A DNA stretch of 44,781 bases from a virus. The notes under the pieces are model-generated. The model did no database searches. It was not told where the DNA came from and saw only the letters and a program-made list of their open reading frames with translations. The stretch lies in the UHGV virus genome UHGV-0214457; one strand, 5' to 3'. Position 1 is the first letter of the stretch. Every line of letters starts with the position of its first letter. The position numbers and the translations under genes are program-made. Positions 11,548 to 36,029 of the stretch are shown here, piece by piece.

Positions 11548-12333
11548 TTATATTGAATTAGAATCCTCTATGTACCAGATTTGCTGGGCGCCATTATCCT
11601 GGCTATGCCAGCAGGCTCCCTCCAGCAGTCCATTCGGTGTCGGGTCGAAATAGTACCAGTCTCCTGAGCCGTCCTCCGGGTCGCACACGGTGCCATTCCA
11701 GCGGTGCCAGCTGGTGCAGGCATAACCATCCTTATTAAATAAGTACCAATGGTGATTTATGACACACCACTTATTAGCCGGGTAAGTTCCATCTGGTCTG
11801 CGGTACCACCAACCATTATTATCCTTAATCCACCCAGTGCGCTCCTGCTCAGTCCAGGTTTTCATGAATTGTTCTGGATTTTGGTACAATTTCTTGATAC
11901 CACTGGTGGAGCTGCCCCAATCAGGAAGTTGAAAATGTGGCTTGTCCACAGGAGACTTCCAGTTTCCTCCCCATTCAAGACCGATAGATACGCCAATAGC
12001 ACCTACACGGTTAAAGAAGCCGCCTATTTCGTTATAGGCTCCAGCGCCATCATTGCGGAATATATCAAAAGCCGTTCCCCATTGATGATAGGAGCTGTAG
12101 CTGCTGCCAGGAGCATTAGTTACAATGTTACCCGGTTTAGTCCTACCCTGAGCGTATAAAGCATCCTGTTCTGCCACGGTCCGCAGTGTCTCACCTATTT
12201 TAATTTTTAATCCCTGTTTATTGCATTCGTCCACCAATTGACCTGCTAAAAGCTGTAAGCGTGGATGGCACAATGTGATATCTCTCATAATCATCCTCCA
12301 ATTATGCTGTTTTTCTGCTGCTCTGTAATCCAT
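11548..12333 (-). CDS. endolysin: peptidase M15 (VanY/L-Ala-D-Glu peptidase-like) plus C-terminal cell-wall-binding repeats
   Basis: HQWGTAFDI...PHF zinc-peptidase motifs; C-terminal Trp/Tyr-rich repeats GWIKDNNGWWYRRPDGTY...HHWYLFNKDGY. Confidence 0.75.
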   Translation of the reverse strand: MDYRAAEKQHNWRMIMRDITLCHPRLQLLAGQLVDECNKQGLKIKIGETLRTVAEQDALYAQGRTKPGNIVTNAPGSSYSSYHQWGTAFDIFRNDGAGAYNEIGGFFNRVGAIGVSIGLEWGGNWKSPVDKPHFQLPDWGSSTSGIKKLYQNPEQFMKTWTEQERTGWIKDNNGWWYRRPDGTYPANKWCVINHHWYLFNKDGYACTSWHRWNGTVCDPEDGSGDWYYFDPTPNGLLEGACWHSQDNGAQQIWYIEDSNSI

Positions 12334-12417
12334 CCAATTGACACAGCCCGGTTGAGTTCGGAAAGCGTTAATGGCCCTTTACCATTGTTATATAGCCTTT
12401 TTAATGTTGTATACATA

Positions 12418-12831
12418 TTACACCTCCAACTGACTTAAAATCATTGCATCCACTGTATCTTGCAAGGTCTGTACTGTATCCCGGATATCTGGCCTACGAA
12501 GTTTAACTACCATAACGGTATCCTTCACTTCCTTGGTTTCATAATTCGGCGCTTCTTCGGTTCCGGTATTTACTGTTTCATAGGATATGGCATAATCCAT
12601 TTTCTTTTGCATCTCCACCAACCGGGTAAATCCTGTTTTTACTTCCATCGGCTGACCATTCAAACCAAGTATGTAAATTTTTTCTGTGTTTGTCGCATTG
12701 AATTCTACTTCTACTGTTTCAAAACTGTCTAGGCCGGGAAGAAACGAAAGGGTTAGGTAATCTCCTGATTCTTCCACCCCGTTTGTTATTAAGTCGTATT
12801 TTGTGTTGTTTGATAGTTTTAATTGGTTCAT
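12418..12831 (-). CDS. hypothetical protein (137 aa, no TM)
   Basis: ORF between the endolysin and tail-fiber genes. Confidence 0.4.
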   Translation of the reverse strand: MNQLKLSNNTKYDLITNGVEESGDYLTLSFLPGLDSFETVEVEFNATNTEKIYILGLNGQPMEVKTGFTRLVEMQKKMDYAISYETVNTGTEEAPNYETKEVKDTVMVVKLRRPDIRDTVQTLQDTVDAMILSQLEV

Positions 12832-12871
12832 TTTACTCCTTTCATGGGTATGTTTTTATATTATAAAATAG

Positions 12872-13165
12872 CAATTTACCATACATAGACACCAGCAAAA
12901 AAATTAAAGATGGGTTTGCTAACGGTACAAGTTGGGCAGCTACAGAGGATTGTATAGTTTGTGGTTCCATTGGTTTTAACATCTCAGCTCAGGGTTGTAA
13001 TGTACTTATAAATGGGATAAATATTTTTTGGGTCAATAATGATGTCACAGTCAATTCGTCAATGCCTATATGGTTTTCTGTGCGTAAAGGTGATACCGTA
13101 CGATTTATTGGTTATAACAGTCAAGTTCCAAACCTTACGAACCTATATGCCTTCAGCACAAAATG
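12872..13165 (+). pseudogene. 97-codon plus-strand open frame with no start codon (...DGFANGTSWAATEDCIVCGSIGFNISAQGCNVLINGINIFWVNNDVTVNSSMPIWFSVRKGDTVRFIGYNSQVPNLTNLYAFSTK*)
   Basis: an ATG at 12909 lies in the +1 frame just after an A7 run; possible frameshifted moron gene. Confidence 0.3.
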
Positions 13166-13169
13166 ATTA

Positions 13170-13658
13170 TTATGATGGCTTATTAAATTTCCAAACCTGC
13201 TTCCAGTTTCGTCCGTCATAAAAATCATACCAGATACCGGTGTTGTTAAATGCGATTGACGCAATCTCACCGTTATCATAATATAGCTGGAATGCCCGGT
13301 CAGTTCGGTCAGAATACACGGCTGTAAAACCATTAATGTTCTTGACGCCGTTTAAAGTCACCTTTGCATTAGTTTTTGCTAAATTGCTATTTGCAGTAGC
13401 AATATCATCCGTATTTTTTGTGATTGCTTGCTGCATCGAATAGACCAGCGAAGATGACGGAACTGTGGTTTGTGAATTTGTTTGAACGGTTGAAATTAAT
13501 GCTTTTAGTGTATCAATTATTTCATTAGCTTTTTCAACAGTTTCTTCCAGTTTATTTTCTGTTTTATTAAGATGTTCAGCATCAATATCCGGTTCAGAAT
13601 TATTTACATAATTAGTTGGATTATAGTTGTCCATTTTTTCTAAATCATTTATTGCCAT
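13170..13658 (-). CDS. tail fiber / receptor-binding tip protein (coiled coil plus C-terminal beta domain)
   Basis: position and composition. Confidence 0.45.
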   Translation of the reverse strand: MAINDLEKMDNYNPTNYVNNSEPDIDAEHLNKTENKLEETVEKANEIIDTLKALISTVQTNSQTTVPSSSLVYSMQQAITKNTDDIATANSNLAKTNAKVTLNGVKNINGFTAVYSDRTDRAFQLYYDNGEIASIAFNNTGIWYDFYDGRNWKQVWKFNKPS

Positions 13659-24535: not shown

Positions 24536-24799
24536 TTATTTATTCATCTGCTTATACATCTGGTTAACGCCTGTAGCTGCCAGACCAGACACAGCACCGA
24601 CCGCCACAGCCGTGATATAGTCCGATGCCGGGAAATCTGGTATAGTTCCCATACCAAGCGCTCCCAGAACGCCACCCACAACAGCCATAATGACCGGTAT
24701 CCATTCGTCCGGTATCTTCTTTGCCGCTTTGCATCCAAGACCAACCACATAGCTTAAAGCCACAATAGCCACACATGTTCCCAATGTCGTTATATCCAT
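24536..24799 (-). CDS. small multi-TM membrane protein (holin-like) inside the head module
   Basis: 87 aa with 2-3 hydrophobic helices and a charged C-terminus. Confidence 0.4.
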   Translation of the reverse strand: MDITTLGTCVAIVALSYVVGLGCKAAKKIPDEWIPVIMAVVGGVLGALGMGTIPDFPASDYITAVAVGAVSGLAATGVNQMYKQMNK

Positions 24800-25316: not shown

Positions 25317-26489
25317 TTAAGAGTGAGACGTTACATCGTCATTTCCAGATTTCAACGCCTTATAGGTATTGTCACACTCAACTACTGTGATATGATTCCC
25401 GGTCGTTGCCTTGATATCAGATTTACCGTCCCATGCTGTCCACGTCTTTACATTCTGACCATATTTCACTTCTGGAGCGGAATCAGTTGCCACTTTGTAC
25501 TTGTACATGTGTCCTGTTTCGAGGGGAGGTTCAACGGTTAATTTTGTGTTTCCTGATGTGCTTCCGGCCGAAGAAGTTACCGTCAGTGTTCCAAGAACGG
25601 GATTATCAGTAATATCAACAACTGCGATTCCGTCAATATATTCTGCAAACAAGGTAAGTCCCATGATTGCAAATGCTTCGGAAACAGCGGTATTGTAATT
25701 TCCCTGCGTATGGAATCCGATAAGGTTTGTCTCCCCGGCTCCAGTGGTATATACAAGACCCGCCCGTGCAAAATCGCTCTCATTTGGGTCCACATAGTAC
25801 ATTACAATGTTTTCCACCGGTGTAGCTATTACCTTTCCTCTTGCAATCTCCGAATCGGACAGCAGGAAGATTGTGTTGAATCCCATGAAATCCTTAAGAT
25901 ACTGGAAACCAAACTGATTCTGCACGGTGATTTCAGCTGCGCCCAAGTACTGATAAACATCCAGAATATTTACAAATCCAACCACACCTGTAACATTCCG
26001 GTGCATCTGCTTGAATTTGTTTTCTACCATTCCTTTTGCCATAGCAAGGGCCATCTGGAATGTAGTTTCCGTTCCAGTAAGTGTACCAGTATTCAGATAT
26101 GTATAGAATCGTTCTGTTACATTCGACTGAAGCTGGAACAAAAATTCATCGTCTGTCATCTGAACGGCATTTTCATAGCCGTGGTCTTTAATTGCTTCAA
26201 TGGAAACGGCCTTTGCATACTTCTCTATGGTCATCTCCGCATATGTCTTTTCCTTTACCGTAAATTTGCTGTAAGGGATTTCCTCTCCTTCGCCTACAGC
26301 ACCGCTCTGTAAAGTTCCTTCTGCATATTTGCTTTTCAGCACCGCGCCCGGTGTTTTCTTGATAGGACGCATAATCCCCAGGATATCCCGGAGGTGCTGC
26401 CAGTTCCGTTCAAACCGGGTCACAAAATCAATTTCTCGCGCTGTTACCTGTATGTCCGCGCTTGTGATTATATTGGCTTTTGCTGCCAT
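25317..26489 (-). CDS. major capsid protein with a C-terminal Ig-like domain
   Basis: 390 aa immediately after the scaffold gene; C-terminal Big-like TVTSSAGSTSGNTKLTV... segment. Confidence 0.6.
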   Translation of the reverse strand: MAAKANIITSADIQVTAREIDFVTRFERNWQHLRDILGIMRPIKKTPGAVLKSKYAEGTLQSGAVGEGEEIPYSKFTVKEKTYAEMTIEKYAKAVSIEAIKDHGYENAVQMTDDEFLFQLQSNVTERFYTYLNTGTLTGTETTFQMALAMAKGMVENKFKQMHRNVTGVVGFVNILDVYQYLGAAEITVQNQFGFQYLKDFMGFNTIFLLSDSEIARGKVIATPVENIVMYYVDPNESDFARAGLVYTTGAGETNLIGFHTQGNYNTAVSEAFAIMGLTLFAEYIDGIAVVDITDNPVLGTLTVTSSAGSTSGNTKLTVEPPLETGHMYKYKVATDSAPEVKYGQNVKTWTAWDGKSDIKATTGNHITVVECDNTYKALKSGNDDVTSHS

Positions 26490-27112
26490 TACTGTTCTCC
26501 TTTACCGAATAAATGTAGGTTACTGGCGATTGCAGACTGGCGCTCAGACGGGTCTTTAATCGCTTCAATATCCTTTCGTGTCATAGTTCCTGGCGTATTC
26601 TGCTTACCTACTGGTGCGGTAAACCTCGCCATGTTCTGCTGTACCTGCTGCTGTGCATCATCAACAAAAGCCGAAGCATCTTTTTCTTTCATTTGAGACA
26701 AAAGGTCATTCAGCCCCAGAATTTTACCATCTTTCAGTTTTAAACCGGCCTCTTTTACTTCTGCCATAATTGCACGTTTAGCCGCTTCGCTGGAAAACTT
26801 AATACCCTCAAATTCCGTTTTCAGAGCGTCCGAAAAGTCACGCGCGTAAAGCTGCTCCTGGGCTTTTTTCTCGGCTTCCGTAGCTTTCTGTTTCCAGTCA
26901 GATATTTCCCTCTGCATCGTCTCCAGGTCAACCCCTTCAAAGCCTTTCAGCGTTGCTTCTGCTGCTTCTGCTTTTTCTTTCCAGGTATCCCGGTCCGCGC
27001 TCAGATTGTCGTTTTCTTTCTGCAACTTTTTGAGGTCTTTCCCATTTTCAGCCATGACAAAAGATATCTGTTCCTCTGTCAATCCCTGTGCTTTTAATTC
27101 TTCGGTTTTCAT
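26489..27112 (-). CDS. scaffolding protein
   Basis: coiled-coil, Lys/Glu-rich, directly upstream of the capsid gene. Confidence 0.6.
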   Translation of the reverse strand: MKTEELKAQGLTEEQISFVMAENGKDLKKLQKENDNLSADRDTWKEKAEAAEATLKGFEGVDLETMQREISDWKQKATEAEKKAQEQLYARDFSDALKTEFEGIKFSSEAAKRAIMAEVKEAGLKLKDGKILGLNDLLSQMKEKDASAFVDDAQQQVQQNMARFTAPVGKQNTPGTMTRKDIEAIKDPSERQSAIASNLHLFGKGEQ

Positions 27113-27308
27113 TGATGATTCTCCTTTTCCGTTATTAGGTTATTTGTAGGTGTGTAACCGTCCACCAACGGTTGCCATTTTGTAGGACTTGACTTGTCCA
27201 AAAACGCACATGCCGGAAATTGCATCCGCTTTTCAACCTCCAGGCTGTTCACGCTATGCGCTAGAACCTGTTTCTTTTAAGGACATGTGCTATAGGAGGG
27301 AGGTCAAT

Positions 27309-27369
27309 ATAAAGAAAGAGCCAAACAAACTCTTGCATCTGTTTGGCTCTGCGTCTGGCGTCTGGCTCT
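27309..27369 (-). terminator. rho-independent terminator (11-bp stem AGAGCCAAACA/TGTTTGGCTCT plus U-run) with a 5' AGAGCCAGACGCCAGACGC flank
   Basis: read directly; located between the accessory cassette and the scaffold gene. Confidence 0.5.
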
Positions 27370-27373
27370 AAAG

Positions 27374-27559
27374 TTATGTTGCAGGTGATAAACCACTTTT
27401 ATCTAAATCACTTGCTTTTCCTTTTGCAATATTCATTATGGATGTATTCTTGCATACAGGGCAAAATACGGGAAGGTTTTTCGCAACCGTATCTGGTCGT
27501 ATTTTAGTCCGAGTTTTATTGTTACATATAGGGCAGTACACCCAACTGTCTTTTACCAT
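27374..27559 (-). CDS. cysteine-rich KTR-motif zinc-ribbon protein
   Basis: CPICNNKTRTK...CPVCKN. Confidence 0.55.
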   Translation of the reverse strand: MVKDSWVYCPICNNKTRTKIRPDTVAKNLPVFCPVCKNTSIMNIAKGKASDLDKSGLSPAT

Positions 27560-27676
27560 GTTTTCACCCTTTTTTCACCCTTTCTGCTTATTCCTACTCC
27601 CATTTTACCGTATTCGCAAATAATAATCGTCCCCACATTTTTCAAAGGCGGCAGGATTTTTCCTACCGCCAATGTG

Positions 27677-28216
27677 TTACACCATATTGCGTAACTTCTC
27701 AATATATCTCTTCATGGTTTCTCTTTCTTCCCGGCAGTCAGCATCTTTCGACATTTCGCCTAACTCTTCTGTCAGTTCGTCCATATGCTCTTCCAAGGCT
27801 GCAAGCATACGGCGCTTGCAATCTTCATCTTTTCCACCACTTCTGTAGCTCTGCTTCTGATTCATGTAGTCATCATAGGCCGGACCGGTCGCACGGCTGT
27901 AGTGTCCTCTGACGTAATGTTTTCCGCGTGTGCCGCGATATGAGCTGTCATTATCATAGTCCTGTGACATTCCATCAGCACGGCTATAACGTCCCATGCT
28001 GTCGCGCTTGCGACGCGCTTCGCTGTATTCTCCGCCGTCCATTTCGTCCATTACCTGATTGTAGTACTCTTCTTTGCACTTCCAGTACTCCACATTCTCC
28101 ATGTCTTTCCACATGTCAATCAGTTTGTATGCGTTTTCAAGGTTGCTGGTGTTAAGGCCCTTCTCCGCAATATTGTCCAGCTCTTCGTGGATTTTTTGCA
28201 TTAATTTATAACTCAT
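27677..28216 (-). CDS. hypothetical charged Tyr/Asp/Arg-rich protein
   Basis: ORF; low-complexity middle region. Confidence 0.45.
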   Translation of the reverse strand: MSYKLMQKIHEELDNIAEKGLNTSNLENAYKLIDMWKDMENVEYWKCKEEYYNQVMDEMDGGEYSEARRKRDSMGRYSRADGMSQDYDNDSSYRGTRGKHYVRGHYSRATGPAYDDYMNQKQSYRSGGKDEDCKRRMLAALEEHMDELTEELGEMSKDADCREERETMKRYIEKLRNMV

Positions 28217-28228
28217 AGCCTTACCTCC

Positions 28229-28627
28229 TTAACCTATTCTGCTAACAACAAGGTTAGCGTCTGATACTGTCGCCGCTGCGGTTCCAACGTTTTTCACCGA
28301 CAGGGTAGCACAACATGGCTTGCACACTCGTACTTCTGCAGTTGCTGCTCCATTGATTGTTGCGCCGGCGGCAACTGTGTTCTGGATTCTTGCACCGGGG
28401 ATGCCTTCGCCGTCCTGCTGCACTTCAAAAATAACGTCACCTGCTGCGGCTGCGGAAAAGTTTCCGTTAAAGCCTACACGGTACAGGCCAGGAAGTAAAA
28501 CTACTCTCCCAGAAAGTGGCTCATGTCTTATGTTTGGACAATTGCAAGAATATATCCGGTTTGCTGCAAACAAAACACTTGCATTGACTTCAACGGTCTG
28601 TGTACCAGCAGTTACAAAATCTGCCAT
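28229..28627 (-). CDS. BclA C-terminal-domain-like (C1q/TNF-like) beta-rich protein
   Basis: Ala/Gly/Thr/Val-rich beta pattern ...ANLVVSRIG; weak resemblance only. Confidence 0.35.
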   Translation of the reverse strand: MADFVTAGTQTVEVNASVLFAANRIYSCNCPNIRHEPLSGRVVLLPGLYRVGFNGNFSAAAAGDVIFEVQQDGEGIPGARIQNTVAAGATINGAATAEVRVCKPCCATLSVKNVGTAAATVSDANLVVSRIG

Positions 28628-28692
28628 AATAATTCCTCCTTATATGCACAGAAGGGCAAGCCTGTGCCTACCCCTCCATGTGTGTAATACTA

Positions 28693-28929
28693 CTATTCAG
28701 TAGACATGTCCTTTTCGGACAAGATACGCAATATGCGGTTGTTCTGGTCGATAATCTTTTCCATGTATTCTTTATTTTGCTGTTGAAGCGCTTCCATAAT
28801 ATCATTATTGGAAGCTTCTCCTAAAAGCAAAAACACATCAATCATTTGTAATGCTGTTGCATATAGGGCAAGATTATCGTAAAACTGCTCGTTCCGATTT
28901 AGCATCCGCATCCATTGTTGCATCCACAA
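28693..28929 (-). CDS. hypothetical protein
   Basis: ORF. Confidence 0.35.
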   Translation of the reverse strand: MWMQQWMRMLNRNEQFYDNLALYATALQMIDVFLLLGEASNNDIMEALQQQNKEYMEKIIDQNNRILRILSEKDMSTE

Positions 28930-29606
28930 CCGCAGTTAGATGCGTATGGATATGGTGCAGGGACCGTGTAAGACGGTACAGGCTGCGGCTGACGAAGCTG
29001 TGCAACGATAGTGTTACCAACTGCATCAATAAAGCCGTTCTGGGCAGTCTGGCTTGCCTGGAACCTAAGAGTCTGATTTTCTGCCTGGAGGCTGGAAATC
29101 TTGTCCTGAGTCAAGAAGTCAAGGATGGCCCTGGTGTTGCTGTTGTTGTTATCCAGTAAATCCCTTGTTGCGTTCTGGATTGTATTTCTGGTATCACATG
29201 ACTGTGTAGCCAGATTGTAGTTTACTCCGTCAATTGCGCGCTGTGTCTGGCAGCAGCAATCCTGGAGCTGATAGCCCATCTGGCATAAGCTGCGGTCAAC
29301 ACCGTTGAATCCGCTGGTGATAGTGTTGTTCAGTGCGTATGTGCTGTCACAGATACCCTGCTGGATACCTCTAATTCCGTTTTCTATACCATTCAAAGCA
29401 AAGCCCTCATTGATATCTGCTCTGGTTGCAAGACCCTGGAGTCCCGCGCCATTTGCACCGTTGCCGCCGAAGCCATTGCCCCAGCCTCCCCCGGCAAAAA
29501 GGAAGAGAACGATAATCCAAATCCAGTCGCCCCACATACCGTCACCATTTCTGTTATTGTTTCCTGTAGCGGCTGCAATGTCCGCTAAAGAGTAACCACT
29601 TTCCAT
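28899..29606 (-). CDS. Gly-rich membrane protein with Cys clusters (CCCQTQ, C-terminal NCGCGCNNGCGC)
   Basis: TM segment WIWIIVLFLFAGGGW flanked by Gly/Asn runs; terminal Cys-Gly repeat. Confidence 0.5.
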   Translation of the reverse strand: MESGYSLADIAAATGNNNRNGDGMWGDWIWIIVLFLFAGGGWGNGFGGNGANGAGLQGLATRADINEGFALNGIENGIRGIQQGICDSTYALNNTITSGFNGVDRSLCQMGYQLQDCCCQTQRAIDGVNYNLATQSCDTRNTIQNATRDLLDNNNSNTRAILDFLTQDKISSLQAENQTLRFQASQTAQNGFIDAVGNTIVAQLRQPQPVPSYTVPAPYPYASNCGCGCNNGCGC

Positions 29607-29659
29607 AAATATTTACTCCTTTAAATTTATTTACAAAATCATGCGCATTGATTTATGTA

Positions 29660-29908
29660 CTATTTTTTCATGCCTCCAAGCATCTGCTGAAACTGCTGTG
29701 CCATCTGCTGGGCTTGGTCTAACTGCTGTTGAGTTATCTGCCCAGATTGTAGCATCTTCTGCACTTCTTCCTGGGGGTTCCCTTTGAAATTGTTCTTAAA
29801 TTCCATAAACTTTTGAATCATCTGCATTGGGTTGTTTCCCCCGCCCATTCCAGGCATCATGCCGCCCATTGGTGAGCCGCCGCCCAACATGCTAAATAAT
29901 GGATTCAT
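29660..29908 (-). CDS. Gly/Met/Gln-rich low-complexity small protein
   Basis: MLGGGSPMGGMMPGMGGGNNPMQ...QQQLDQAQQMAQQFQQ. Confidence 0.45.
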   Translation of the reverse strand: MNPLFSMLGGGSPMGGMMPGMGGGNNPMQMIQKFMEFKNNFKGNPQEEVQKMLQSGQITQQQLDQAQQMAQQFQQMLGGMKK

Positions 29909-29911
29909 ATA

Positions 29912-30370
29912 TTATTTCCCCTTTCCGCTTGGCGCTGTGCTGGATTCTAAAAGGCCATATAATTCATCATATTTTGCCTTTAAATCCTGATACTCGTTTC
30001 TGGTAACATACTTTTCGTCAAGATTTTCAGCCGGTGCAATTTCCTTCTTCTGACCATTTACAATCTCTTTATATTCAAAAGTGCGGAGTGTTGGCATCCC
30101 TGCCGCATCGGTTGTCTTAATATAAAAATACTCATTTTCGCTGTCCATCAGCAATATAGATGTGCTGGGCGCTACTAAATACGACTTTGCCCCGGCCTCA
30201 CCCTGCACCCATAATATTCCCTGGTTGGTCTGCGGGACCTGTGGAACCTGCGTCTGTTGCGGCATCTGGTATGGTGCCTGTAGCTGCTGCAATCGGTCCA
30301 TAGGTGGTTGATATGGGTATGCGTTTGGATATGTATTCAGATAGTTTGGATTGATAAATGGTTGCGGCAT
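29912..30370 (-). CDS. Pro/Gln/Tyr-rich N-terminus plus globular C-terminal domain protein
   Basis: ORF; PQ-rich N-terminal 60 aa. Confidence 0.45.
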   Translation of the reverse strand: MPQPFINPNYLNTYPNAYPYQPPMDRLQQLQAPYQMPQQTQVPQVPQTNQGILWVQGEAGAKSYLVAPSTSILLMDSENEYFYIKTTDAAGMPTLRTFEYKEIVNGQKKEIAPAENLDEKYVTRNEYQDLKAKYDELYGLLESSTAPSGKGK

Positions 30371-30477
30371 TATATCCCCTCCGTTCTTTTATATTTCAAT
30401 TATCCCATAAAAAATAAGCCCTTGACAGGTCGTCAAAGACTTATAAAAGTATCAAGAAAGTATTCTAATATCCAAAA

Positions 30478-30663
30478 TCATCCAAACAATTCGTTTAAGC
30501 ATTTTATACACATATCTTTTAATGCTTGCTGTGAAATAGCAACTTGGTCATTGTCTGATAATTTTATTTCAAATCCATTCCATTTTACAGACACCCAATT
30601 CCCCCGCGTGGGTGTTCTTCCACAATTTATAATTAACTCACTTTCATCTGCAAACTGTTTCAA
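30478..30663 (-). CDS. hypothetical protein
   Basis: ORF. Confidence 0.35.
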   Translation of the reverse strand: MKQFADESELIINCGRTPTRGNWVSVKWNGFEIKLSDNDQVAISQQALKDMCIKCLNELFG

Positions 30664-30679
30664 ATTGTTTTCTCCCTTA

Positions 30680-30880
30680 TTAACACACCCTTATGATTTT
30701 GTTGTTTACTTTTCTGCTTAATCTCTTGACTGTGGATACACTTACGTTCATTAGTTCAGCGCAATATTCCAAAGGATAATTTTTAGCCCGGTACTCAAAC
30801 AGTGCCCGTTCTTCATCCGTAAAGTTACAATATGTACGAAAATAGTTTAGTTCTGGCACTGTAAAGTCATATACCTTCAA
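30680..30880 (-). CDS. ArpU-like / sigma-70 region-4-like late transcriptional regulator
   Basis: FTDEERALFEYRAKNYPLEYCAELMNVSVSTVKRLSRKV. Confidence 0.5.
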   Translation of the reverse strand: MKVYDFTVPELNYFRTYCNFTDEERALFEYRAKNYPLEYCAELMNVSVSTVKRLSRKVNNKIIRVC

Positions 30881-30891
30881 CGCAACGCTCC

Positions 30892-31185
30892 TTAAATACC
30901 TTCTGACAAATGCTTTATCATAGCTTCTTTGGTTTTTTTTAAACCCTCTATGTTGTTACCGGTTATACGATTATCAATTAATGCTATCATTCCTTGGCAT
31001 AAAAGAGATTGCATATCTCTTATTTCTTTGATAGATTTATAATCATTTTCCACATTTATTTCTAATTTATCCACTCGGTTTTTTAGCTTAAATGCTGGAT
31101 GCAACAATTTGTATATTACGGCTCCTGCACCTCCAAGAGTAATAAGCCAACCGCATACAACCATAATAGAGTTTAATGTTTCCAT
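30892..31185 (-). CDS. N-terminally membrane-anchored coiled-coil protein
   Basis: IMVVCGWLITLGGAGAVIYKLL TM segment. Confidence 0.4.
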   Translation of the reverse strand: METLNSIMVVCGWLITLGGAGAVIYKLLHPAFKLKNRVDKLEINVENDYKSIKEIRDMQSLLCQGMIALIDNRITGNNIEGLKKTKEAMIKHLSEGI

Positions 31186-31188
31186 AAG

Positions 31189-31569
31189 TTATCGCCTTTC
31201 CCAGTAGTATATTGGTATCTCCTGCCCGCTGTCCCATGTATCCCAGTAATAACCATCCTGCACACACACCACATGCCCTGTAATTGCTAATACGTATGTT
31301 CCCATAGGATTATCCTGACAAAAGTTCTCGACCGTGTATACATCTTGTCCGTGGTCATCCACTATGTACCGCTTAAACCCATTTTGACGTAGGTATGCAC
31401 CCCACACATGATTGGCTGATGGCATATCAGATAGAGCACACGCACATACCGTCACTCCGGCAAATACCGTTTCCCAGTCGCTGTCAAGGGCTTTTGTTAT
31501 AGCCCGGATAGGGCAATCGCCCACACGCTGATTGCGTGGATTAGGATTGAATAGTTTCCATCTGCTCAT
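31189..31569 (-). CDS. hypothetical protein
   Basis: ORF. Confidence 0.4.
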   Translation of the reverse strand: MSRWKLFNPNPRNQRVGDCPIRAITKALDSDWETVFAGVTVCACALSDMPSANHVWGAYLRQNGFKRYIVDDHGQDVYTVENFCQDNPMGTYVLAITGHVVCVQDGYYWDTWDSGQEIPIYYWERR

Positions 31570-32009
31570 TCTTCTTTTCCTTTCGCATTCTGATACCTCC
31601 GCGCTGCTCCCCTAGCCTTTGCGGCCTGCTCCCGGTTCCATCTTGCAATCTGCAATCGTTCCTGCTGGGTGCGCAAGTCGTTCGTTTTACAAAATTCGTT
31701 GTATGCTTTATTCTGACGCTGTAACAAATATGATTTACGGTCAAGTTCAAGCTGCATTTCAAATTTAGCCGGTTCATCCTTGCATTTATCTACAGCTTCT
31801 TGCATTCCCATAACTTCTCGCTTAGTCTTTCTGATGCGCCGTTCAAGCATTCGCTGCCGCTTCTCCAACTGTTCAACCTTGTAATTGTCTGCGGTTTGGA
31901 TGTCCTTATAAGGGTTTCCCTTCCCCTCATAATATGGGCCGAAACTATGACGTTCGACAGTTTGCCCCGCAAATCCCGTCAACCTTTCCCCAACCACAGG
32001 TATCAACAA
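31566..32009 (-). CDS. hypothetical coiled-coil, Arg/Lys-rich protein
   Basis: ORF. Confidence 0.4.
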   Translation of the reverse strand: MLIPVVGERLTGFAGQTVERHSFGPYYEGKGNPYKDIQTADNYKVEQLEKRQRMLERRIRKTKREVMGMQEAVDKCKDEPAKFEMQLELDRKSYLLQRQNKAYNEFCKTNDLRTQQERLQIARWNREQAAKARGAARRYQNAKGKEE

Positions 32010-32031
32010 AATCTGGATACAAACTACTCAT

Positions 32032-32709
32032 TTAATCATCCCCCTTCTTTATCCAATATTTTTCTTCGGCTTTTTCTCTCGCCTCTATGGCTTCATCAAG
32101 ATTATAAAAATACCCTAGATGAATATTGTTTCCGTTTACCATAATGCACGACCTATACTTTATTTCCCCTGTTCTAGTGGTGACTTTTGTAACGCCAGAC
32201 TTTCCCGTTCTGCTGTCTTTTCTTGTTCCCCTATTCCAACAGTTTTCCTGATGTGTTATCCAACGACAATTATCTGGGGAATACCCCTTGTCATTATCTT
32301 TTCTGTCAAGCGTCAAATTATCTGCATACCCATTTTCCATAGACCATTTATAAAAATTGAGAAAACCATTCTCCCCTTGCCACTCATCACATACCTTAAT
32401 ACCTCGTCCTCCATAATTTTCATAGTGTGAGGCAGAAGGATTTTTGCACCGATGAAGTATCCCTCTCCATTCTTTGTGTATTCTGCTTTTGGATTTTCCG
32501 TGAACTAAAGAAGCTTTTGAAATACGTTCTTTTTTTAAACATCCGCATGATTGCGTATGTCCTGTAGTAAGTTTAGCCGTATCAACAAAAACTATATTCC
32601 CACATTCACACTTACACTTCCACTTGTGTATCCAGTTTTCGTGTGTACCATCACCAATCACTGTAAGTCTGCCAAATTTCTGACCTATAAGATTTCTTTT
32701 AGTTCCCAT
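32032..32709 (-). CDS. HNH homing endonuclease with AP2 domain (N-terminal zinc finger)
   Basis: YGGRGIKVCDEW...NGYADNLTLDRKDN..YSPDNCRWITHQEN plus AP2-like TGEIKYRS...YFYNLDEAIEAREKAEEKYW; paralog of 35553..36029. Confidence 0.7.
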   Translation of the reverse strand: MGTKRNLIGQKFGRLTVIGDGTHENWIHKWKCKCECGNIVFVDTAKLTTGHTQSCGCLKKERISKASLVHGKSKSRIHKEWRGILHRCKNPSASHYENYGGRGIKVCDEWQGENGFLNFYKWSMENGYADNLTLDRKDNDKGYSPDNCRWITHQENCWNRGTRKDSRTGKSGVTKVTTRTGEIKYRSCIMVNGNNIHLGYFYNLDEAIEAREKAEEKYWIKKGDD

Positions 32710-32812
32710 TCCGTTCTCCTTTATACGTATATACTCCTTTACGTATATTGTACCATATTTCCAACTTTACGTCCATACGTATTTATGGTATATTCATATT
32801 AGGAGGTGCGAT

Positions 32813-32956
32813 ATGAGCAAAGTCAAATTCACAACCACGATAGACGAAGGTCTTTTGGAACAAATCAAAATCTTGGCAGTCAAGGAAAAATGTTCTGTAT
32901 CTGCTATATTAGAACGGCTCATAAAGGAGCATTTGGGAAAGCCGGAGAGGGATTAA
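32813..32956 (+). CDS. ribbon-helix-helix (CopG/Arc-like) DNA-binding protein, 47 aa
   Basis: MSKVKFTTTIDEGLLEQIKILAVKEKCSVSAILERLIKEHL (beta strand plus two helices); AGGAGG RBS 7 nt before the ATG; not in the ORF track. Confidence 0.5.
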   Translation: MSKVKFTTTIDEGLLEQIKILAVKEKCSVSAILERLIKEHLGKPERD

Positions 32957-33759
32957 GCACCCTCTCTTTTCTTTGCCTTTTCAACCTTATCCCAATCCAC
33001 AGAATATATCCCTGCTTGCCAGTATAAGTGATTTGTATGGTCTGGCCCTCCTGACCCAGTACGCGCGCCTATATGAGCCGAGGTCAACACCAACGAACAA
33101 CCCATTTCTTTCATTCTTGCAAGCGTTATGTCCGCGCACGCCTGAGCCACCCCGGTGCGTACCGCGCGCGCTGTAGCAGTTTCTATAGTGTCTTTATGAC
33201 CTGAAGGGTAATGTATTACTACTCCGACCGATACCACATTATTAACTGCTTCTTTGACAGCCTGTGTGTACGATACAGCCCCAGAAGATACAAGGTGGTA
33301 TGCATTATCACATTCGTTTATAAAAAGCCTTTGTGCGGCTTCTGCTGTGGTCCTAGTATAGTTTTTCCACTCTCCCATTGTTGCATCCATGTTTCGTTCC
33401 ATCAATCGAATAAGCTGCGGTGATTGGGTAAGCGGTGTTGGAGACAAACCAGCAGCTTCATATATTTTATGGTCGTATTCCAGGGCCTTGACTCCAGCTT
33501 CTTCCATTGCGGACTTGATTTCTTTTTCCTGCCGCTTAGTGACTTTGGATAACTCTGCCGTTATGTCCTCCAGCAGATAACCTGCATCCTGCAATATCTG
33601 TATGCGCCATCGGTCAGAGGAGGTGAGCAGGTAATCATCGCCACGGCCTATGCGTATCATCATGCGGTCTATTATCTGACGGATAATGTATGTATGGAGT
33701 TGTGAGGCTATTTCTTCACTTCCTTCTGCGATTCTTGCAAGGTACTCAGGGCTTAACAT
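32953..33759 (-). CDS. head morphogenesis protein (SPP1 gp7-like minor head protein)
   Basis: position after the portal gene. Confidence 0.55.
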   Translation of the reverse strand: MLSPEYLARIAEGSEEIASQLHTYIIRQIIDRMMIRIGRGDDYLLTSSDRWRIQILQDAGYLLEDITAELSKVTKRQEKEIKSAMEEAGVKALEYDHKIYEAAGLSPTPLTQSPQLIRLMERNMDATMGEWKNYTRTTAEAAQRLFINECDNAYHLVSSGAVSYTQAVKEAVNNVVSVGVVIHYPSGHKDTIETATARAVRTGVAQACADITLARMKEMGCSLVLTSAHIGARTGSGGPDHTNHLYWQAGIYSVDWDKVEKAKKREGA

Positions 33760-33865: not shown

Positions 33866-35293
33866 TTATTCCTCCTCAAACATCCTTGTCCCATCCTTCG
33901 GCTGCGCTTCCTGTACCATAGCCTTTGCATCTTCTTCGGATAATCCTTCAAATTTCTGGAAATACATCCAGGACGGGACCTTCCCCTGCACAACATACTG
34001 CCACCATCTTGCTCTGTCCTCTTCACGGTTATATGTAATGTCTCCAAAATCATATGTTATTTCGTAGTTTCCGGCTGGTGCCAGTCCGTACAGGTCCGCA
34101 TATACATTAAGCGCATATATTGCCCCGTCAAGACAACTTTCCAGTTTGTCGCGCACATCCTTGATTAATTGGATAGTGCGGCGGTCATCAGCTTCTACCT
34201 GCGTTGCTGTGACCATACCTGTTTTTTCGTCAAGTACAAAGTACCCGTTGGAGTATCCGCACTTGAATCCAATAAATGAAAGAAGATTATTAATTCCAGT
34301 AAGTCTTATATCAGTATTTAACGATGGATTAATCTCATGGTAAAATTCTCCATTACTATTTCCAAATACATTTCTTACATAATGGGGTAATTTAACTTTA
34401 TTTACTCCTGGGCGTTTTAAATTTCTTCCATCACCAAGCATTAATTGGTCATCAATTAATATAATTTTCTCACTGTCAAATATTTCACCCACATTCCGAC
34501 TATATGCCACATCAAGGTCCTTTAATTCTTCTATGGCCTCGGCAAACATTGGCAATCCCAAAGGTGATGAGATATCCAAATTGTTAGCCTGTGGAGTGCG
34601 GAGTACACCAAACATGGGGCCGTCTATTTTATCATTGTTAGCCTTGAGTATAGGCGGTGTATCTGGAAGTAAGTCAGACCACTTAGTCCTGTTTAATGCT
34701 ATCGGGTCCCCCACACTTTTTGCAGACTGAGACACATAAGCTCTATTGGATATGTAATATGGGTAATAGGTGTTTTCCCCCTCCTTGACCTCGACAAACC
34801 GATGATACTCAAACCGGGTATAATACTTATCATTTTCGCTGTAGCTATCCTTGAATACAATCCCATAGATACCTTCATTGTCACAATCCGTAATAATAAA
34901 GTCCATCGGTGTGAATATGTCCAGTCCCTTTCCATTGGGCTTAAGGATGATTGTGCCGTAGGCCATACCATACTCTACCCAGTGGCGAATCTGGAAATAT
35001 ATCTTGTCAATCTGCTCCTGGAGCCACGCCGCCCGCGCACTCCCATCAATCTGTATTCCGATTGCCAGGGTAGCAAGTCGGGCCGTCTCTGAGCAGATGG
35101 CCTTTGCAAAATTGATTGTCTTAACGTTATCGTCAGCGTTCACCCAATAGGGCGTACCACGGTAGATATTGGCGCACTCTGCAATCTTGCTTTCCATCTC
35201 CGGGGATACTACTGACTCAACATTAAAATCTTCTTCTGCCTGTCGCTTGAATATCATTCCTATCACCTTTTTAGCCCATGTTATTAGTCCCAT
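33866..35293 (-). CDS. portal protein
   Basis: 475 aa directly downstream of the terminase genes. Confidence 0.75.
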   Translation of the reverse strand: MGLITWAKKVIGMIFKRQAEEDFNVESVVSPEMESKIAECANIYRGTPYWVNADDNVKTINFAKAICSETARLATLAIGIQIDGSARAAWLQEQIDKIYFQIRHWVEYGMAYGTIILKPNGKGLDIFTPMDFIITDCDNEGIYGIVFKDSYSENDKYYTRFEYHRFVEVKEGENTYYPYYISNRAYVSQSAKSVGDPIALNRTKWSDLLPDTPPILKANNDKIDGPMFGVLRTPQANNLDISSPLGLPMFAEAIEELKDLDVAYSRNVGEIFDSEKIILIDDQLMLGDGRNLKRPGVNKVKLPHYVRNVFGNSNGEFYHEINPSLNTDIRLTGINNLLSFIGFKCGYSNGYFVLDEKTGMVTATQVEADDRRTIQLIKDVRDKLESCLDGAIYALNVYADLYGLAPAGNYEITYDFGDITYNREEDRARWWQYVVQGKVPSWMYFQKFEGLSEEDAKAMVQEAQPKDGTRMFEEE

Positions 35294-35581
35294 TTAATCA
35301 ACCTTACCTTTGCGCCCCATCAACATATCCAGCCCATTTGCGATTTTACATATATCGTCCGCCATCTTCTTTCGGTTTTCTGGGCTGAATGTTTCTTCTA
35401 ACGCCTCTTTATAAGCCTGTTTCAAGTCTGGATTATCTGCAAAAATCTTCTTTAATTCTTTTTTTGCACAATCTCCACATTTATCCGCTTTATAGGTCAG
35501 TTCTTTTCCACATACAGAACATCTATACTTTATCATGCGCTGTTTCCCCTTCTCATTGATAATGGGCTTGTGGCATAGCAC
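35294..35581 (-). CDS. zinc-ribbon hypothetical protein
   Basis: CSVCGK...CGDC. Confidence 0.4.
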   Translation of the reverse strand: MLCHKPIINEKGKQRMIKYRCSVCGKELTYKADKCGDCAKKELKKIFADNPDLKQAYKEALEETFSPENRKKMADDICKIANGLDMLMGRKGKVD

Positions 35582-36029
35582 CCCAGTATTTCACTTCTCC
35601 CTTTCTTCGTGCCTTGGCAGCTTCTTCTGCTGTATCATATCTCCCCAAATCCATACGTCTGCTATTAACGTATATCAAAGCTCGATATTTTCCCCTATCT
35701 GCCTCATAATGTACGCCATTATACCCGGTTCTATTCGTCCTCTGTTTTCGCTTGTTTCTGGCCTGTTCTGTTTCCGTAGCCCAATGACAGTTTTCAGGGC
35801 AATAATCTCCGTTTGTATCTTTTCTGTCAATGCTCAAATTATCAGTATATCCATTTTGCAAGGCCCATTGAATAAATTCCATTGAGTTGTTATTCCATCC
35901 CTCACAGACCTTTATTCCTCTACCACCATAATTATCATAATCCTTGTCATTCGGGTTATTGCATCTCTGACGGATACCCTGCCATATTTTATATATCCTT
36001 GGATAATTTTTCTTTGCCCCACTACGCAC
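35553..36029 (-). CDS. HNH homing endonuclease with AP2 domain
   Basis: YGGRGIKVCEGW..NGYTDNLSIDRKDT..YCPENCHWATETEQ plus AP2-like GKYRALIYVNSRRMDLGRYDTAEEAAKAR. Confidence 0.7.
   Translation of the reverse strand: MRSGAKKNYPRIYKIWQGIRQRCNNPNDKDYDNYGGRGIKVCEGWNNNSMEFIQWALQNGYTDNLSIDRKDTNGDYCPENCHWATETEQARNKRKQRTNRTGYNGVHYEADRGKYRALIYVNSRRMDLGRYDTAEEAAKARRKGEVKYWGAMPQAHYQ

What the first reader, a model, noticed from the sequence alone, without database searches (positions are those of the whole stretch)
27374..30880. Late-operon accessory cassette of Gly/Cys-rich, low-complexity proteins, wedged between head morphogenesis and scaffold genes and headed by an ArpU-like regulator
In comparable siphoviruses the portal, minor-head, scaffold and capsid genes are contiguous. 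Here about 6 kb sits between the gp7-like gene and the scaffold gene. Its distal 3-3.5 kb (the ~3 kb encoding the seven unusual proteins, or ~3.5 kb including the ArpU/sigma-like regulator at 30680..30880 and the small ORF 30478..30663) holds the cassette, which ends at a strong terminator at 27309-27369. The seven proteins have no obvious virion role. They are a PQY-rich protein, a Gly/Met/Gln-rich 82-aa protein, a 235-aa membrane protein (Gly-rich segment, TM, CCC cluster, terminal CGCGCNNGCGC), a BclA-CTD/C1q-like beta protein, a charged DY-rich protein and a KTR zinc-ribbon protein. The composition resembles spore-surface or exosporium proteins, or secreted/modified peptide precursors, more than phage structural proteins. 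This could be a coherent, co-regulated late-expressed system, for example host-surface or spore remodelling, a toxin or bacteriocin, or capsid decoration, that has not been described.
Basis: partly seen in the sequence, partly recalled or inferred. Interest (0 to 1): 0.7.

Follow-up and report, generated by a model that had tools for sequence, protein, structure and literature searches.

The report
Widespread uncharacterised accessory operon of gut phages
The odd Gly/Cys-rich genes are the core of a conserved, separately regulated accessory operon (a membrane-anchored stalk protein, a BclA/C1q-like protein, three low-complexity partners, a small protease and a small regulator) that thousands of gut phages carry, that some can lose, and that nobody has described.

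Summary
The ORFs and their features are real, but the unit is drawn wrongly. Across 89 loci from genomes and phage records, the conserved collinear block is S (sigma region-4-like HTH, 30680-30880), P (31189-31569, outside the finding), then A-B-C-(D)-E-F (30370-27677).

- **Excluded genes:** the KTR gene and ORF 30478-30663 are not part of the block. KTR stays with the scaffold gene even where the block is absent.
- **C** (more than 1,700 clusters at 50% identity) has a short hydrophobic anchor, Gly-rich linkers, a roughly 130-residue helix with an invariant CCC, and a CGC tail.
- **E**'s family hits Pfam BclA_C (best E 5e-7).
- **Usual position:** after the lysis genes and before the integrase. 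The head-module position is specific to this lineage.
- **Virulent phages** also carry it (Butyrivibrio virus Ceridwen, C. perfringens phages). A reduced version sits among TAG-recoded late genes of a crAss-like phage.
- **Dispensable:** phiCP39-O-type phages and one close relative of the window lack it.
- **Regulation:** a hairpin plus T-run plus -10 box follows S in most loci.

Function is unknown. My best guess (0.35) is a late, membrane-anchored, peptidase-matured, Cys-rich assembly that acts at lysis or release. I found no description of it in the literature.

The parts
31189..31569 (-). P: 126-aa papain-fold (C39-like) cysteine peptidase.
30892..31185 (-). g97: small protein with an N-terminal hydrophobic segment. 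Lineage-specific companion, not core.
   Evidence: Max hydropathy 2.0 at residues 8-24. Found in 8 of 89 loci, but in many relatives of this scaffold lineage. No Pfam or PHROG hit.
30680..30880 (-). S: 66-aa sigma-70 region-4-like HTH, the presumed regulator of the module.
   Evidence: Sigma70_r4_2 E 9.6e-4, below the gathering cut-off. phrog_1190 E 2.8e-6. TIGR02937 E 0.006 and no ArpU model hit. Present in 51 of 89 loci, always upstream of (P)A.
30478..30663 (-). ORF of 61 aa: lineage-specific filler, not part of the module.
   Evidence: Homologues in only 4 of 89 loci. No family hits.
30446..30464 (-). Two direct repeats, AATACTTT and GATACTTT, 11 nt apart. Candidate binding sites for S.
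   Evidence: Read from the sequence. Direct repeats spaced 9-11 nt (11 nt in 10 of 12) precede the hairpin in 12 of 41 S loci, against 15 of 492 control windows.
30399..30444 (-). Regulatory junction: 13-bp hairpin (30444-30414), T-run, then a -10-like GATAAT (30404-30399), 28 nt before the A start codon.
   Evidence: Hairpin -15.5 kcal/mol, z -4.5. Terminator-like and promoter-like calls. A hairpin plus T-run follows S in 37 of 41 loci (control 130 of 492). A -10-like box follows directly in 24 of 41 (control 28 of 492).
29912..30370 (-). A: 152 aa, with a PQY-rich disordered N-terminus, a conserved middle segment and a C-terminal stretch that scores only against coiled-coil chains.
   Evidence: phrog_21718 E 7e-48, unknown function. 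Family in 80 of 89 loci. No Pfam, NCBIfam or PDB match, even with a profile.
29660..29908 (-). B: 82 aa, Gly/Met-rich N-terminus and Gln-rich C-terminal half.
   Evidence: phrog_22984 E 3e-22. The B slot is filled in 80 of 89 loci, by B or by the positional analogue B'. Composition.
28899..29606 (-). C: 235-aa signature protein. Acidic N-tail, about 13 hydrophobic residues flanked by W and Gly-rich segments, a long helix with an invariant CCC, and a Pro-rich tail ending in CGC.
   Evidence: phrog_16490 E 6e-62. More than 7,988 clusters at 90% identity. 1,778 clusters at 50% identity, with no longer fused forms among the 150 listed. CCC in 81 of 81 homologues; N-tail D+E 3.7 against K+R 1.2. 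AF2 was poor (pLDDT 52) but gave helices 28-38, 73-99 and 105-204.
28693..28929 (-). D: 78-aa protein, optional slot between C and E.
   Evidence: Found in 11 of 89 loci, including C. perfringens phage XP41-N3. Weak PF22556 match, E 8e-6, below the cut-off.
28229..28627 (-). E: 132-aa, 5-Cys protein whose family matches the BclA C-terminal domain (C1q/TNF-like).
   Evidence: phrog_20016 E 3e-13. 9 of 42 family members hit PF18573 BclA_C, best E 5e-7. None of the alternative E' family does. The window protein itself has no hit at E <= 1. The E slot is filled in 86 of 89 loci.
27677..28216 (-). F: 179 aa, conserved ends around a D/Y/R/G-rich low-complexity middle.
   Evidence: phrog_28802 E 2e-70. 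The F slot is filled in 82 of 89 loci, by F or by F' (a DUF7841 domain plus an R/D/Y-rich region).
27647..27670 (-). Hairpin directly after the F stop codon. It closes the A-F unit.
   Evidence: -19.6 kcal/mol, z -4.0. The U-run after it is weak: UUUG.
27374..27559 (-). KTR zinc-ribbon gene: not part of the module. It travels with the scaffold gene.
   Evidence: PF14205 E 4e-19. Lies directly before the scaffold gene in 66 of 68 lineage relatives, including L127, which has no module. Absent from the module in other backbones.
27317..27350 (-).
   Evidence: 14-bp stem, -21.2 kcal/mol, z -5.6, followed by UUUCUUUAUAUU.
27136..27291 (-). Context: two Rfam RNA motifs, RAGATH-21 (27205-27291) and GP20-b (27136-27199), in the leader of the scaffold gene.
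   Evidence: 83.5 bits (gathering 70.3) and 40.9 bits (gathering 36.2).

Best explanation
**What it is.** The finding is the core of a self-contained phage accessory operon. In the window it reads P (C39-like cysteine peptidase), a small membrane protein, and S (sigma region-4-like HTH). A hairpin/T-run/-10 junction follows, then A-B-C-D-E-F, closed by a hairpin.

**Proposed working.**
1. Late in the lytic cycle, S acts at the junction. It either activates the promoter through the direct repeats or allows read-through of the hairpin.
2. C inserts into the cytoplasmic membrane through its short, W-flanked hydrophobic segment.
3. C's long helical stalk, with the invariant CCC and the C-terminal CGC tail, projects from the membrane.
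4. E (BclA-C/C1q-like) and the low-complexity proteins A, B and F assemble on this stalk.
5. A dedicated peptidase trims one or more of the components. Here that is P. Other versions carry an HExxH metallopeptidase-like protein in the same slot.

The product would be a membrane-anchored, Cys-rich, potentially cross-linkable protein layer made at the end of infection. It is dispensable for making virions. It most likely acts at the lysis or release stage, on the timing or completeness of envelope breakdown or on the fate of progeny and cell remnants.

**Shown:** gene content, collinearity, spread, the fold and catalytic residues of P, the BclA_C relation of E, the hairpin/-10 junction, and dispensability.

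**Inferred:** the protein-protein contacts, the topology of C, the substrate of P, the timing in this phage, and the biological role.
For: **Conserved module**
- Slot census over 89 loci: C 89, E slot 86, F slot 82, A 80, B slot 80, peptidase 67, S 51, in one order.
- The B/B', E/E' and F/F' variants combine freely.
- Peptidase slot in 59 complete modules: P adjacent in 37, an HExxH protein (DUF6782/SprT-like) in 9, never both.

**Component properties**
- P fold and invariant Cys/His/Asp.
- C anchor, Gly-rich linkers, 100-residue helix and CCC in 81 of 81 homologues.
- E family matches BclA_C.

**Own regulation**
- After S: hairpin plus T-run in 37 of 41 loci, a -10 box in 24 of 41, both well above controls.
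- The window's hairpins fold better than all 200 shuffles.

**Late/lytic context**
- Lysis enzymes are the commonest upstream neighbours and integrase the commonest downstream one.
- The full module follows the endolysin in Ceridwen, which was observed only to grow lytically.
- The crAss-like cr109_1 homologue of C carries two in-frame TAG codons, one at the Q of the conserved CCCxTQR motif. It sits beside holin and LysB-like genes. Recoding marks late structural and lysis genes (bioRxiv 10.1101/2021.08.26.457843).

**Dispensable**
- L127 has only 496 nt between the minor-capsid and scaffold genes.
- phiCP39-O, 26F and 13O match 17DYC at 97% identity in the flanks but lack A to D and keep only a remnant of G.
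Against: - There is no expression or localisation data for this phage or any other carrier.
- The AF2 model of C is low-confidence (pLDDT 52).
- C's hydrophobic core is only about 13 residues, and the flanking charges do not settle its topology.
- No double-glycine leader or other candidate cleavage site for P was found by inspection.
- Adjacency to lysis genes may only reflect a general cargo hot spot at the end of the late operon.
- The window phage already has a Hol44 holin and an M15 endolysin, and a Gram-positive host needs no spanin.
- In the window the module is in the head operon. In C. perfringens phages it lies about 3.6 kb past the holin gene, after the antirepressor.
- P homologues also occur alone in Bacillus, Geobacillus and Lak phages, so P may have an independent role.
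Confidence: 0.35

Rival explanations
1. Virion-borne accessory proteins. Either C is a coiled-coil fibre capped by E trimers on the head or neck, or C is a pilot/ejection protein that inserts into the host membrane at infection. A, B and F would be packaged partners, and P their maturation protease.
For: - In this lineage the block sits between the minor head protein and the scaffold gene in 64 of 68 relatives.
- By my own recollection, BclA_C/C1q-like domains are typical fibre tips; here only the Pfam match of E's family was tested.
- crAss-like homologues were annotated 'outer capsid protein/viral fiber' by their depositors and lie among recoded late genes.
- From my own knowledge, a hydrophobic Gly-rich N-terminus plus a long N/Q-rich helix recalls the phiX174 H pilot protein.
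- Cys-rich proteins made without signal peptides fit assembly in the cytoplasm.
Against: - The usual position is outside the structural module, after the lysis genes.
- No homology to any PHROG with a structural annotation.
- A dedicated HTH regulator and a hairpin junction are unusual for virion genes.
- Viable phages lack it, so it cannot be an essential ejection device.
- The only PDB hit to phiX174 H came from F', not C, at E 0.13.
- No proteomic data exist.
Confidence: 0.2
2. A self-assembling, exosporium- or coat-like protective or adhesive protein matrix. C and E would form a nap-like layer and A, B and F a low-complexity matrix. The conserved Cys motifs would cross-link on exposure to oxygen. 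The matrix would coat spores, lysed-cell remnants or groups of progeny particles.
For: - E's family matches BclA_C.
- Conserved CC, CCC and CGC motifs in C, E and E'.
- The PQY-, G/M/Q- and D/Y/R-rich compositions resemble spore-coat and other cross-linked structural proteins. That comparison rests on my own knowledge.
- No component has a signal peptide, as with coat proteins assembled in the mother cell.
- Many hosts are Clostridia.
Against: - No collagen-like repeats.
- No Pfam hit to CotZ/ExsY, DUF3992, GerQ or Coat_F in any slot.
- The module occurs in phages of hosts not known to sporulate and in virulent phages.
- No sporulation-type promoter is evident.
Confidence: 0.12
3. A superinfection-exclusion or anti-phage defence moron. 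C would block DNA entry or trigger membrane damage, and the peptidase would act as the activating switch.
For: - Typical moron position between lysis genes and integrase, with its own promoter-like and terminator-like signals.
- Membrane protein plus protease.
- Presence/absence polymorphism between near-identical phages.
- The neighbouring spot holds other cargo in relatives.
Against: - No PADLOC hit for any of ten proteins.
- Low-complexity structural-type proteins are unlike known defence effectors.
- Phages that behave as lytic carry it, and the crAss-like version lies in recoded late genes.
- Five or more conserved partners is a lot for an exclusion function.
Confidence: 0.1
4. A bacteriocin-like or toxin precursor system. 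The C39-like peptidase would mature a Gly-rich hydrophobic product (from C or B), and phage lysis would release it.
For: - The best structural matches of P are double-glycine bacteriocin-processing domains.
- Gly-rich hydrophobic segments in C and GG motifs in B.
- Position next to the lysis genes.
Against: - No ABC transporter or immunity gene.
- No recognisable double-glycine leader. The window's C has MWG|DW, not GG.
- C is far larger than class II bacteriocins.
- P is replaced by a metallopeptidase-like protein in 9 modules.
- Pfam Peptidase_C39 does not match P.
Confidence: 0.04

Closest known systems
BclA C-terminal domain and the exosporium nap of Bacillus and Clostridioides (Pfam PF18573)
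   Same: E's family gives significant BclA_C matches (9 of 42 members, best E 5e-7). Cys-rich and low-complexity partner proteins are made without signal peptides.
   Different: There is no collagen-like stalk. E is a free-standing 130-150-aa protein. The window's E does not itself reach the Pfam threshold. The stalk-like partner C is helical and carries a membrane anchor. The module is phage-borne and also occurs with hosts not known to sporulate.
Peptidase C39 double-glycine processing domains (PCAT1, LahT, ComA)
   Different: P is a stand-alone 126-aa protein with no ABC transporter. It has no Pfam C39 match. No GG-leader substrate was identified. Staphopain and Josephin DUBs score almost as well. 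An HExxH protein takes the same slot in other versions.
Spanins and other lysis-cassette membrane proteins (Rz-type i-spanin)
   Same: N-terminal membrane anchor, long helical domain, conserved Cys, Pro-rich C-terminus. Frequently adjacent to holin and endolysin genes.
   Different: Most hosts are Gram-positive. There is no lipoprotein partner. C has many more Cys and an acidic N-tail. Four or five extra conserved partners come with a protease and a regulator. The module is dispensable.
Phage morons and cargo cassettes at the lysis-integrase junction
   Same: Autonomous unit bounded by terminator-like hairpins with its own -10 box. Present or absent between close relatives.
   Different: It is far larger and more conserved than typical morons. 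Virulent phages also carry it, and the crAss-like version lies in recoded late genes. Expression in lysogens has not been shown.
Small late regulators of Firmicutes phages (ArpU/RinA family) and sigma-70 region 4
   Same: S is a sigma region-4-type HTH encoded directly upstream of the genes it presumably controls.
   Different: S has only 66 aa and no region 2. It does not match ArpU (no NCBIfam hit). It sits before an accessory operon, not before the terminase genes.

Membership tests
BclA_C (PF18573) - for E | Significant match to the Pfam model | tested here: inconclusive
   Window E132 has no hit at E <= 1. 9 of 42 family members hit, best E 5e-7. A profile of the family finds no PDB chain at all (no hit at E <= 10).
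BclA_C (PF18573) - for E | Trimeric TNF/C1q-like jelly-roll fold | not testable with these tools
BclA-type exosporium glycoprotein | Collagen-like GXX repeats preceding the C-terminal domain | tested here: not met
   E is 132 aa with no repeat region. The Gly-rich parts of C are GWG/GFGG-type, not GXX triplets.
Peptidase C39 (double-glycine peptidase) - for P | Papain-like fold closest to C39 domains | tested here: met
Peptidase C39 (double-glycine peptidase) - for P | Conserved catalytic Cys and His (plus Asp) | tested here: met
   C19, H99 and D110 are invariant in 38 and in 52 homologues. Their spatial proximity in the model was not inspected.
Peptidase C39 (double-glycine peptidase) - for P | Match to the Pfam/NCBIfam family model | tested here: not met
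   No Pfam hit beyond a chance-level SH3_5 match (E 0.2) and no NCBIfam hit at E <= 0.1.
Peptidase C39 (double-glycine peptidase) - for P | Partner ABC transporter and a substrate with a GG leader | tested here: not met
   No transporter in the window or in 89 loci. No conserved GG-leader pattern in A, B, C, E or F.
ArpU/RinA late regulators, or a sigma factor - for S | Match to the family model, and region 2 for a sigma factor | tested here: not met
   Only region-4-type matches, all below the curated cut-offs. 66 aa leaves no room for region 2. No ArpU model hit.
Spanin (i-spanin) - for C | N-terminal TM plus a periplasmic coiled coil, paired with an outer-membrane lipoprotein, in phages of Gram-negative hosts | tested here: not met
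   The anchor and long helix are present. No lipoprotein partner is present among the module's slots. The window's host is a Lachnospiraceae bacterium.
   All the PHROG families hit are 'unknown function'. No PDB or Pfam structural hits. The usual site is outside the capsid module. Virion proteomics could not be tested.
Known anti-phage defence systems (PADLOC-DB) | Match to any model | tested here: not met
   0 hits for 10 proteins at E <= 0.1.
Cys_rich_KTR (PF14205) - for ORF 27374-27559 | Match above the gathering score | tested here: met
   68.5 bits against a cut-off of 25.5. However, the gene is not part of the module.

The most novel reading that the evidence does not exclude
Gut phages may carry a portable kit for building a coat- or exosporium-like, cysteine-cross-linkable protein material. 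It would be anchored on the host membrane by C, capped by the BclA/C1q-like protein E, filled by the prion-like or low-complexity proteins A, B and F, and matured by a protease. The material would stay reduced in the anaerobic cell and harden by disulfide formation on exposure to air. It would protect or bundle progeny, or the remains of the lysed cell, during passage between hosts. That would make it a bacterial-virus counterpart of an occlusion body.
Probability: 0.1. Interest if true: 0.9.

Novelty: categorically new. Interest (0 to 1): 0.7.

Why it matters
The C family alone spans at least 1,778 clusters at 50% identity and more than 7,900 at 90%. That places this module among the commoner unexplained gene sets of phages of gut Clostridia. 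Versions of it also occur in crAss-like phages and in contigs binned to Bacteroidota. Working out its role would add a late-infection function that current phage biology does not list.

It is directly testable:
- A cultured lytic carrier exists: Butyrivibrio virus Ceridwen on B. fibrisolvens DSM 3071.
- Natural plus/minus pairs exist among C. perfringens phages: 17DYC, XP41-N3 and CPD1 carry it, while phiCP39-O, 26F and 13O lack it, with 97% identity in the flanks.

It also offers three separate handles: a compact regulator/hairpin/promoter switch, a minimal 126-aa C39-like peptidase, and an invariant CCC motif in a long helix.

Tried and rejected
- **Family searches.** Pfam, NCBIfam, PHROGs and PADLOC on all ORFs gave only 'unknown function' PHROGs, KTR, and weak sigma region-4 matches.
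- **PDB sequence and profile searches** for A, C, E, E', F' and P found nothing significant. The F' hit to phiX174 H (E 0.13) was set aside as low-complexity noise.
- **AF2 of C** gave pLDDT 52, so I ran no fold search on it.
- **hhalign** of E against E', B against B' and F against F' gave probabilities of 1-20%. I treat these as positional analogues, not proven homologues.
- **Census of weak Pfam hits** over 112 A, F and G members showed no recurrent family.
- **A double-glycine leader** was looked for in the N-termini of module proteins. None was found.
- **The RAYACTTTT motif** is not enriched across the window (4 found, 2.7 expected). The repeats are local to the junction.
- **The spore hypothesis** was weighed and marked down on host range.
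- **Lysogenic conversion** was marked down because lytic phages carry the module.
- **A group I intron** in the split minor capsid gene was not found by Rfam.
- **Literature searches** for PHROG ids, DUF7841, prophage/BclA, crAss lysis genes, phage C39 peptidases and the carrier phages' names found no description of the module.

Full report
**1. What is in the window**

The window is a temperate siphovirus of Lachnospiraceae. Identical or 95-98% identical copies of protein C lie in contigs of Dorea sp. and Enterocloster hominis, and the index lists the identical protein in 396 blocks of the assembly collection.

All late genes are on the minus strand. In order they are:
- portal, 33866-35293
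- Phage_min_cap2 N-part, 32953-33759
- an HNH endonuclease gene, 32032-32709
- Phage_min_cap2 C-part, 31566-32009
- P, 31189-31569
- a 97-aa protein with a hydrophobic N-terminus, 30892-31185
- S, 30680-30880
- a 61-aa ORF, 30478-30663
- A, 29912-30370
- B, 29660-29908
- C, 28899-29606
- D, 28693-28929
- E, 28229-28627
- F, 27677-28216
- KTR, 27374-27559
- scaffold, 26489-27112
- major capsid protein, 25317-26489

**2. What the unit really is**

I took 80 genome loci that encode relatives of C and added loci from phage records and assemblies. I then built iterated profiles for every window ORF. A collinear block recurs.

| Slot | Loci (of 89) |
|---|---|
| C | 89 |
| E slot | 86 |
| F slot | 82 |
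| A | 80 |
| B slot | 80 |
| a peptidase | 67 |
| S | 51 |
| G (small protein, absent from the window) | 17 |

- The commonest orders are S-P-A-B-C-E-F and P-S-A-B-C-E-F. Some variants carry the peptidase after F.
- Each of the B, E and F slots is filled by one of two families with no demonstrable homology. These families combine freely: BEF 28, BeF 12, beF 10, bef 10, bEF 7.
- KTR (13 loci), the 97-aa protein (8) and the 61-aa ORF (4) are confined to the window's lineage.
- Among 68 IMG/VR relatives that hold both the minor-capsid and scaffold genes, 64 have A, B, C, E and F between them. KTR sits directly before the scaffold gene in 66. That includes L127, which has no module and only 496 nt between the two head genes. 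Three others carry partial deletions.

KTR therefore belongs with the scaffold gene.

**3. The parts**

*The peptidase slot.* Of 59 complete modules, 37 have P next to them. Nine instead have a roughly 110-aa HExxH protein (weak DUF6782/SprT-like hits), usually overlapping or abutting the end of F. None has both. Two unrelated peptidase types in one slot argue that proteolysis is part of how the module works.

*C.* The family always has:
- an acidic N-tail of about 31 residues;
- a hydrophobic core of only about 13 residues, flanked by Trp and Gly-rich stretches;
- CCC in 81 of 81 homologues;
- 7-16 Cys;
- usually a C-terminal CGC.

AF2 was not confident (pLDDT 52). It consistently drew helices at 28-38, 73-99 and 105-204, with disordered linkers.

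*E.* The family matches Pfam BclA_C in 9 of 42 members (best E 5e-7). The alternative family E' never does.

*F and F'.* F' combines an R/D/Y-rich region with DUF7841.

*A, B, F and G.* They have no recognisable relatives.

None of A, B, E or F has a signal-peptide-like N-terminus.

**4. Regulation**

Directly after the stop codon of S, 37 of 41 loci have a strong hairpin followed by a T-run, against 26% of control windows. In 24 of 41 a -10-like box follows within 32 nt, against 6% of controls. In 12 of 41 two short direct repeats spaced about 11 nt precede the hairpin, against 3% of controls. The stems differ in sequence between loci while the arrangement is kept.

In the window the elements are:
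- repeats at 30464-30446
- hairpin at 30444-30414 (-15.5 kcal/mol)
- GATAAT at 30404-30399
- A start codon at 30370

A second hairpin follows F at 27670-27647, and a third follows KTR at 27350-27317. A-F is therefore an insulated transcription unit placed behind a small HTH protein. Whether S activates a promoter or lets transcription pass the hairpin cannot be decided from sequence.

**5. Where the module sits, and who carries it**

In a Pfam census of the two nearest large ORFs on each side in about 79 diverse loci:
- *Upstream:* the commonest neighbours are cell-wall hydrolases (Amidase_2, CHAP, GH25, M23 and others). Phage_min_cap2 appears in 8 ORFs.
- *Downstream:* Phage_integrase in 13 ORFs and Phage_scaffold in 6.

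In Anaerotruncus colihominis DSM 17241 the order runs holin, GH25 lysin, HExxH protein, S, A, C, E', F'. ORFs that look like host ruvC and ruvA by inspection follow. The head-operon position in the window is thus a lineage-specific placement of a mobile unit.

Carriers include:
- Butyrivibrio virus Ceridwen. It has the full S, P, A, B, C, E, F, G set right after the endolysin. It was seen only to grow lytically.
- C. perfringens phages XP41-N3, CPD1, 17DYC, HMD-PC1, PMQ04 and CPQ4.
- Contigs binned to Bacteroidaceae, Paludibacteraceae and Collinsella.
- crAss-like phages, in a reduced and reordered form. In cr109_1, F' and C lie next to holin and LysB-like genes. C carries two in-frame TAG codons, one exactly at the Q of the conserved CCCxTQR motif. 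TAG recoding marks late structural and lysis genes in such phages.

**6. Dispensability**

- L127 lacks the module entirely.
- phiCP39-O, 26F, 13O, 34O and 9O match 17DYC at about 97% identity on both sides. They lack A to D and keep only the C-terminal half of G.

These are isolated, plaque-forming phages. The module is therefore an accessory, not a requirement for assembly, DNA delivery or lysis in the laboratory.

**7. Interpretation**

The following rest on computed results: a conserved multi-gene unit, a real peptidase fold, a BclA_C-related protein, an anchor-plus-stalk signature protein with invariant Cys motifs, an insulated regulatory junction, late/lytic context, and dispensability.

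From these I infer that a membrane-anchored, peptidase-matured, Cys-rich assembly is made at the end of infection. I place its payoff at the lysis or release stage (confidence 0.35).

The rivals are virion-borne fibre or pilot proteins (0.2), a coat-like protective matrix (0.12), exclusion or defence (0.1), and a bacteriocin-like product (0.04). The remaining probability is unassigned. A spore-specific role and classical lysogenic conversion are disfavoured by host range and by lytic carriers.

**8. Novelty**

Every protein family involved is annotated 'unknown function' or not annotated at all. Nine literature searches found no description of the module. Individual parts resemble known folds, but no known system has this composition. 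I therefore rate it categorically new, with the function still open.

Noticed in passing
window 27136-27291 (-): Two Rfam motifs above their gathering scores fill the spacer between the KTR terminator and the scaffold start codon: RAGATH-21 (27205-27291, 83.5 bits) and GP20-b (27136-27199, 40.9 bits). They suggest RNA-level control or processing of the scaffold/capsid message just downstream of the module.
   Followed up: partly
window 31566-33759 (-): An HNH homing-endonuclease gene (32032-32709, phrog_374 E 3e-79) splits the Phage_min_cap2 minor capsid gene into 268-aa and 147-aa ORFs. Relatives have one intact gene of 405-408 aa. Rfam finds no group I intron, so how the two halves function is unexplained.
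   Followed up: partly
window 35553-36029 (-) and 32813-32956 (+): A second HNH endonuclease gene sits between the terminase and portal genes. A 47-aa plus-strand ORF lies antisense in the spacer beside the first HNH gene; it looks ribbon-helix-helix-like by eye. Gene callers also call this ORF in identical metagenome copies.
   Followed up: no
window 24536-24799 (-) and 11548-12333 (-): A Hol44-family holin gene (PF16079, E 3e-22) sits among the head-tail connector genes. It is about 12 kb from the M15_4/choline-binding endolysin gene. Relatives and Dulem virus 35 keep the same placement.
   Followed up: no
L006, L007, L009 (about 11,860-13,370 in each locus): Between F and KTR, close relatives carry a reverse-strand insert of three or four genes: 160 aa, an HTH_3 protein of 92 aa, 41 aa and 109 aa. 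This junction is a cargo hot spot.
   Followed up: no
L092 (Bacillus phage Tsamsa gp15), L091 (Geobacillus GBK2 gp35), Lak megaphages: Homologues of the peptidase P (31-42% identity) occur on their own, with no other module gene detected nearby in the two loci inspected (Tsamsa, GBK2). The enzyme may therefore also have a module-independent target.
   Followed up: partly
Six loci among L012-L089 (upstream flanks): AgrB-like ORFs (PF04647, best E 2e-7) lie just upstream of the module in six loci. They could be unrelated quorum-sensing cargo or another processing enzyme. The member loci were not identified individually.
   Followed up: no
L003 7128-7694 (crAss-like cr109_1 gp62): Two genes downstream of the C homologue, a 188-aa gene carries nine in-frame TAG codons, far more than its neighbours. 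It has a coiled-coil, Q-rich C-terminus and may be the A-like partner.
   Followed up: partly
L174 3068-3824 (phiCP39-O gp44-gp45) and L002 8634-9161: In the C. perfringens phages a 175-aa protein follows the module and stays when the module is deleted. Its depositors noted a ferritin domain. gp44 of phiCP39-O is the C-terminal remnant of G, which marks the deletion scar.
   Followed up: partly
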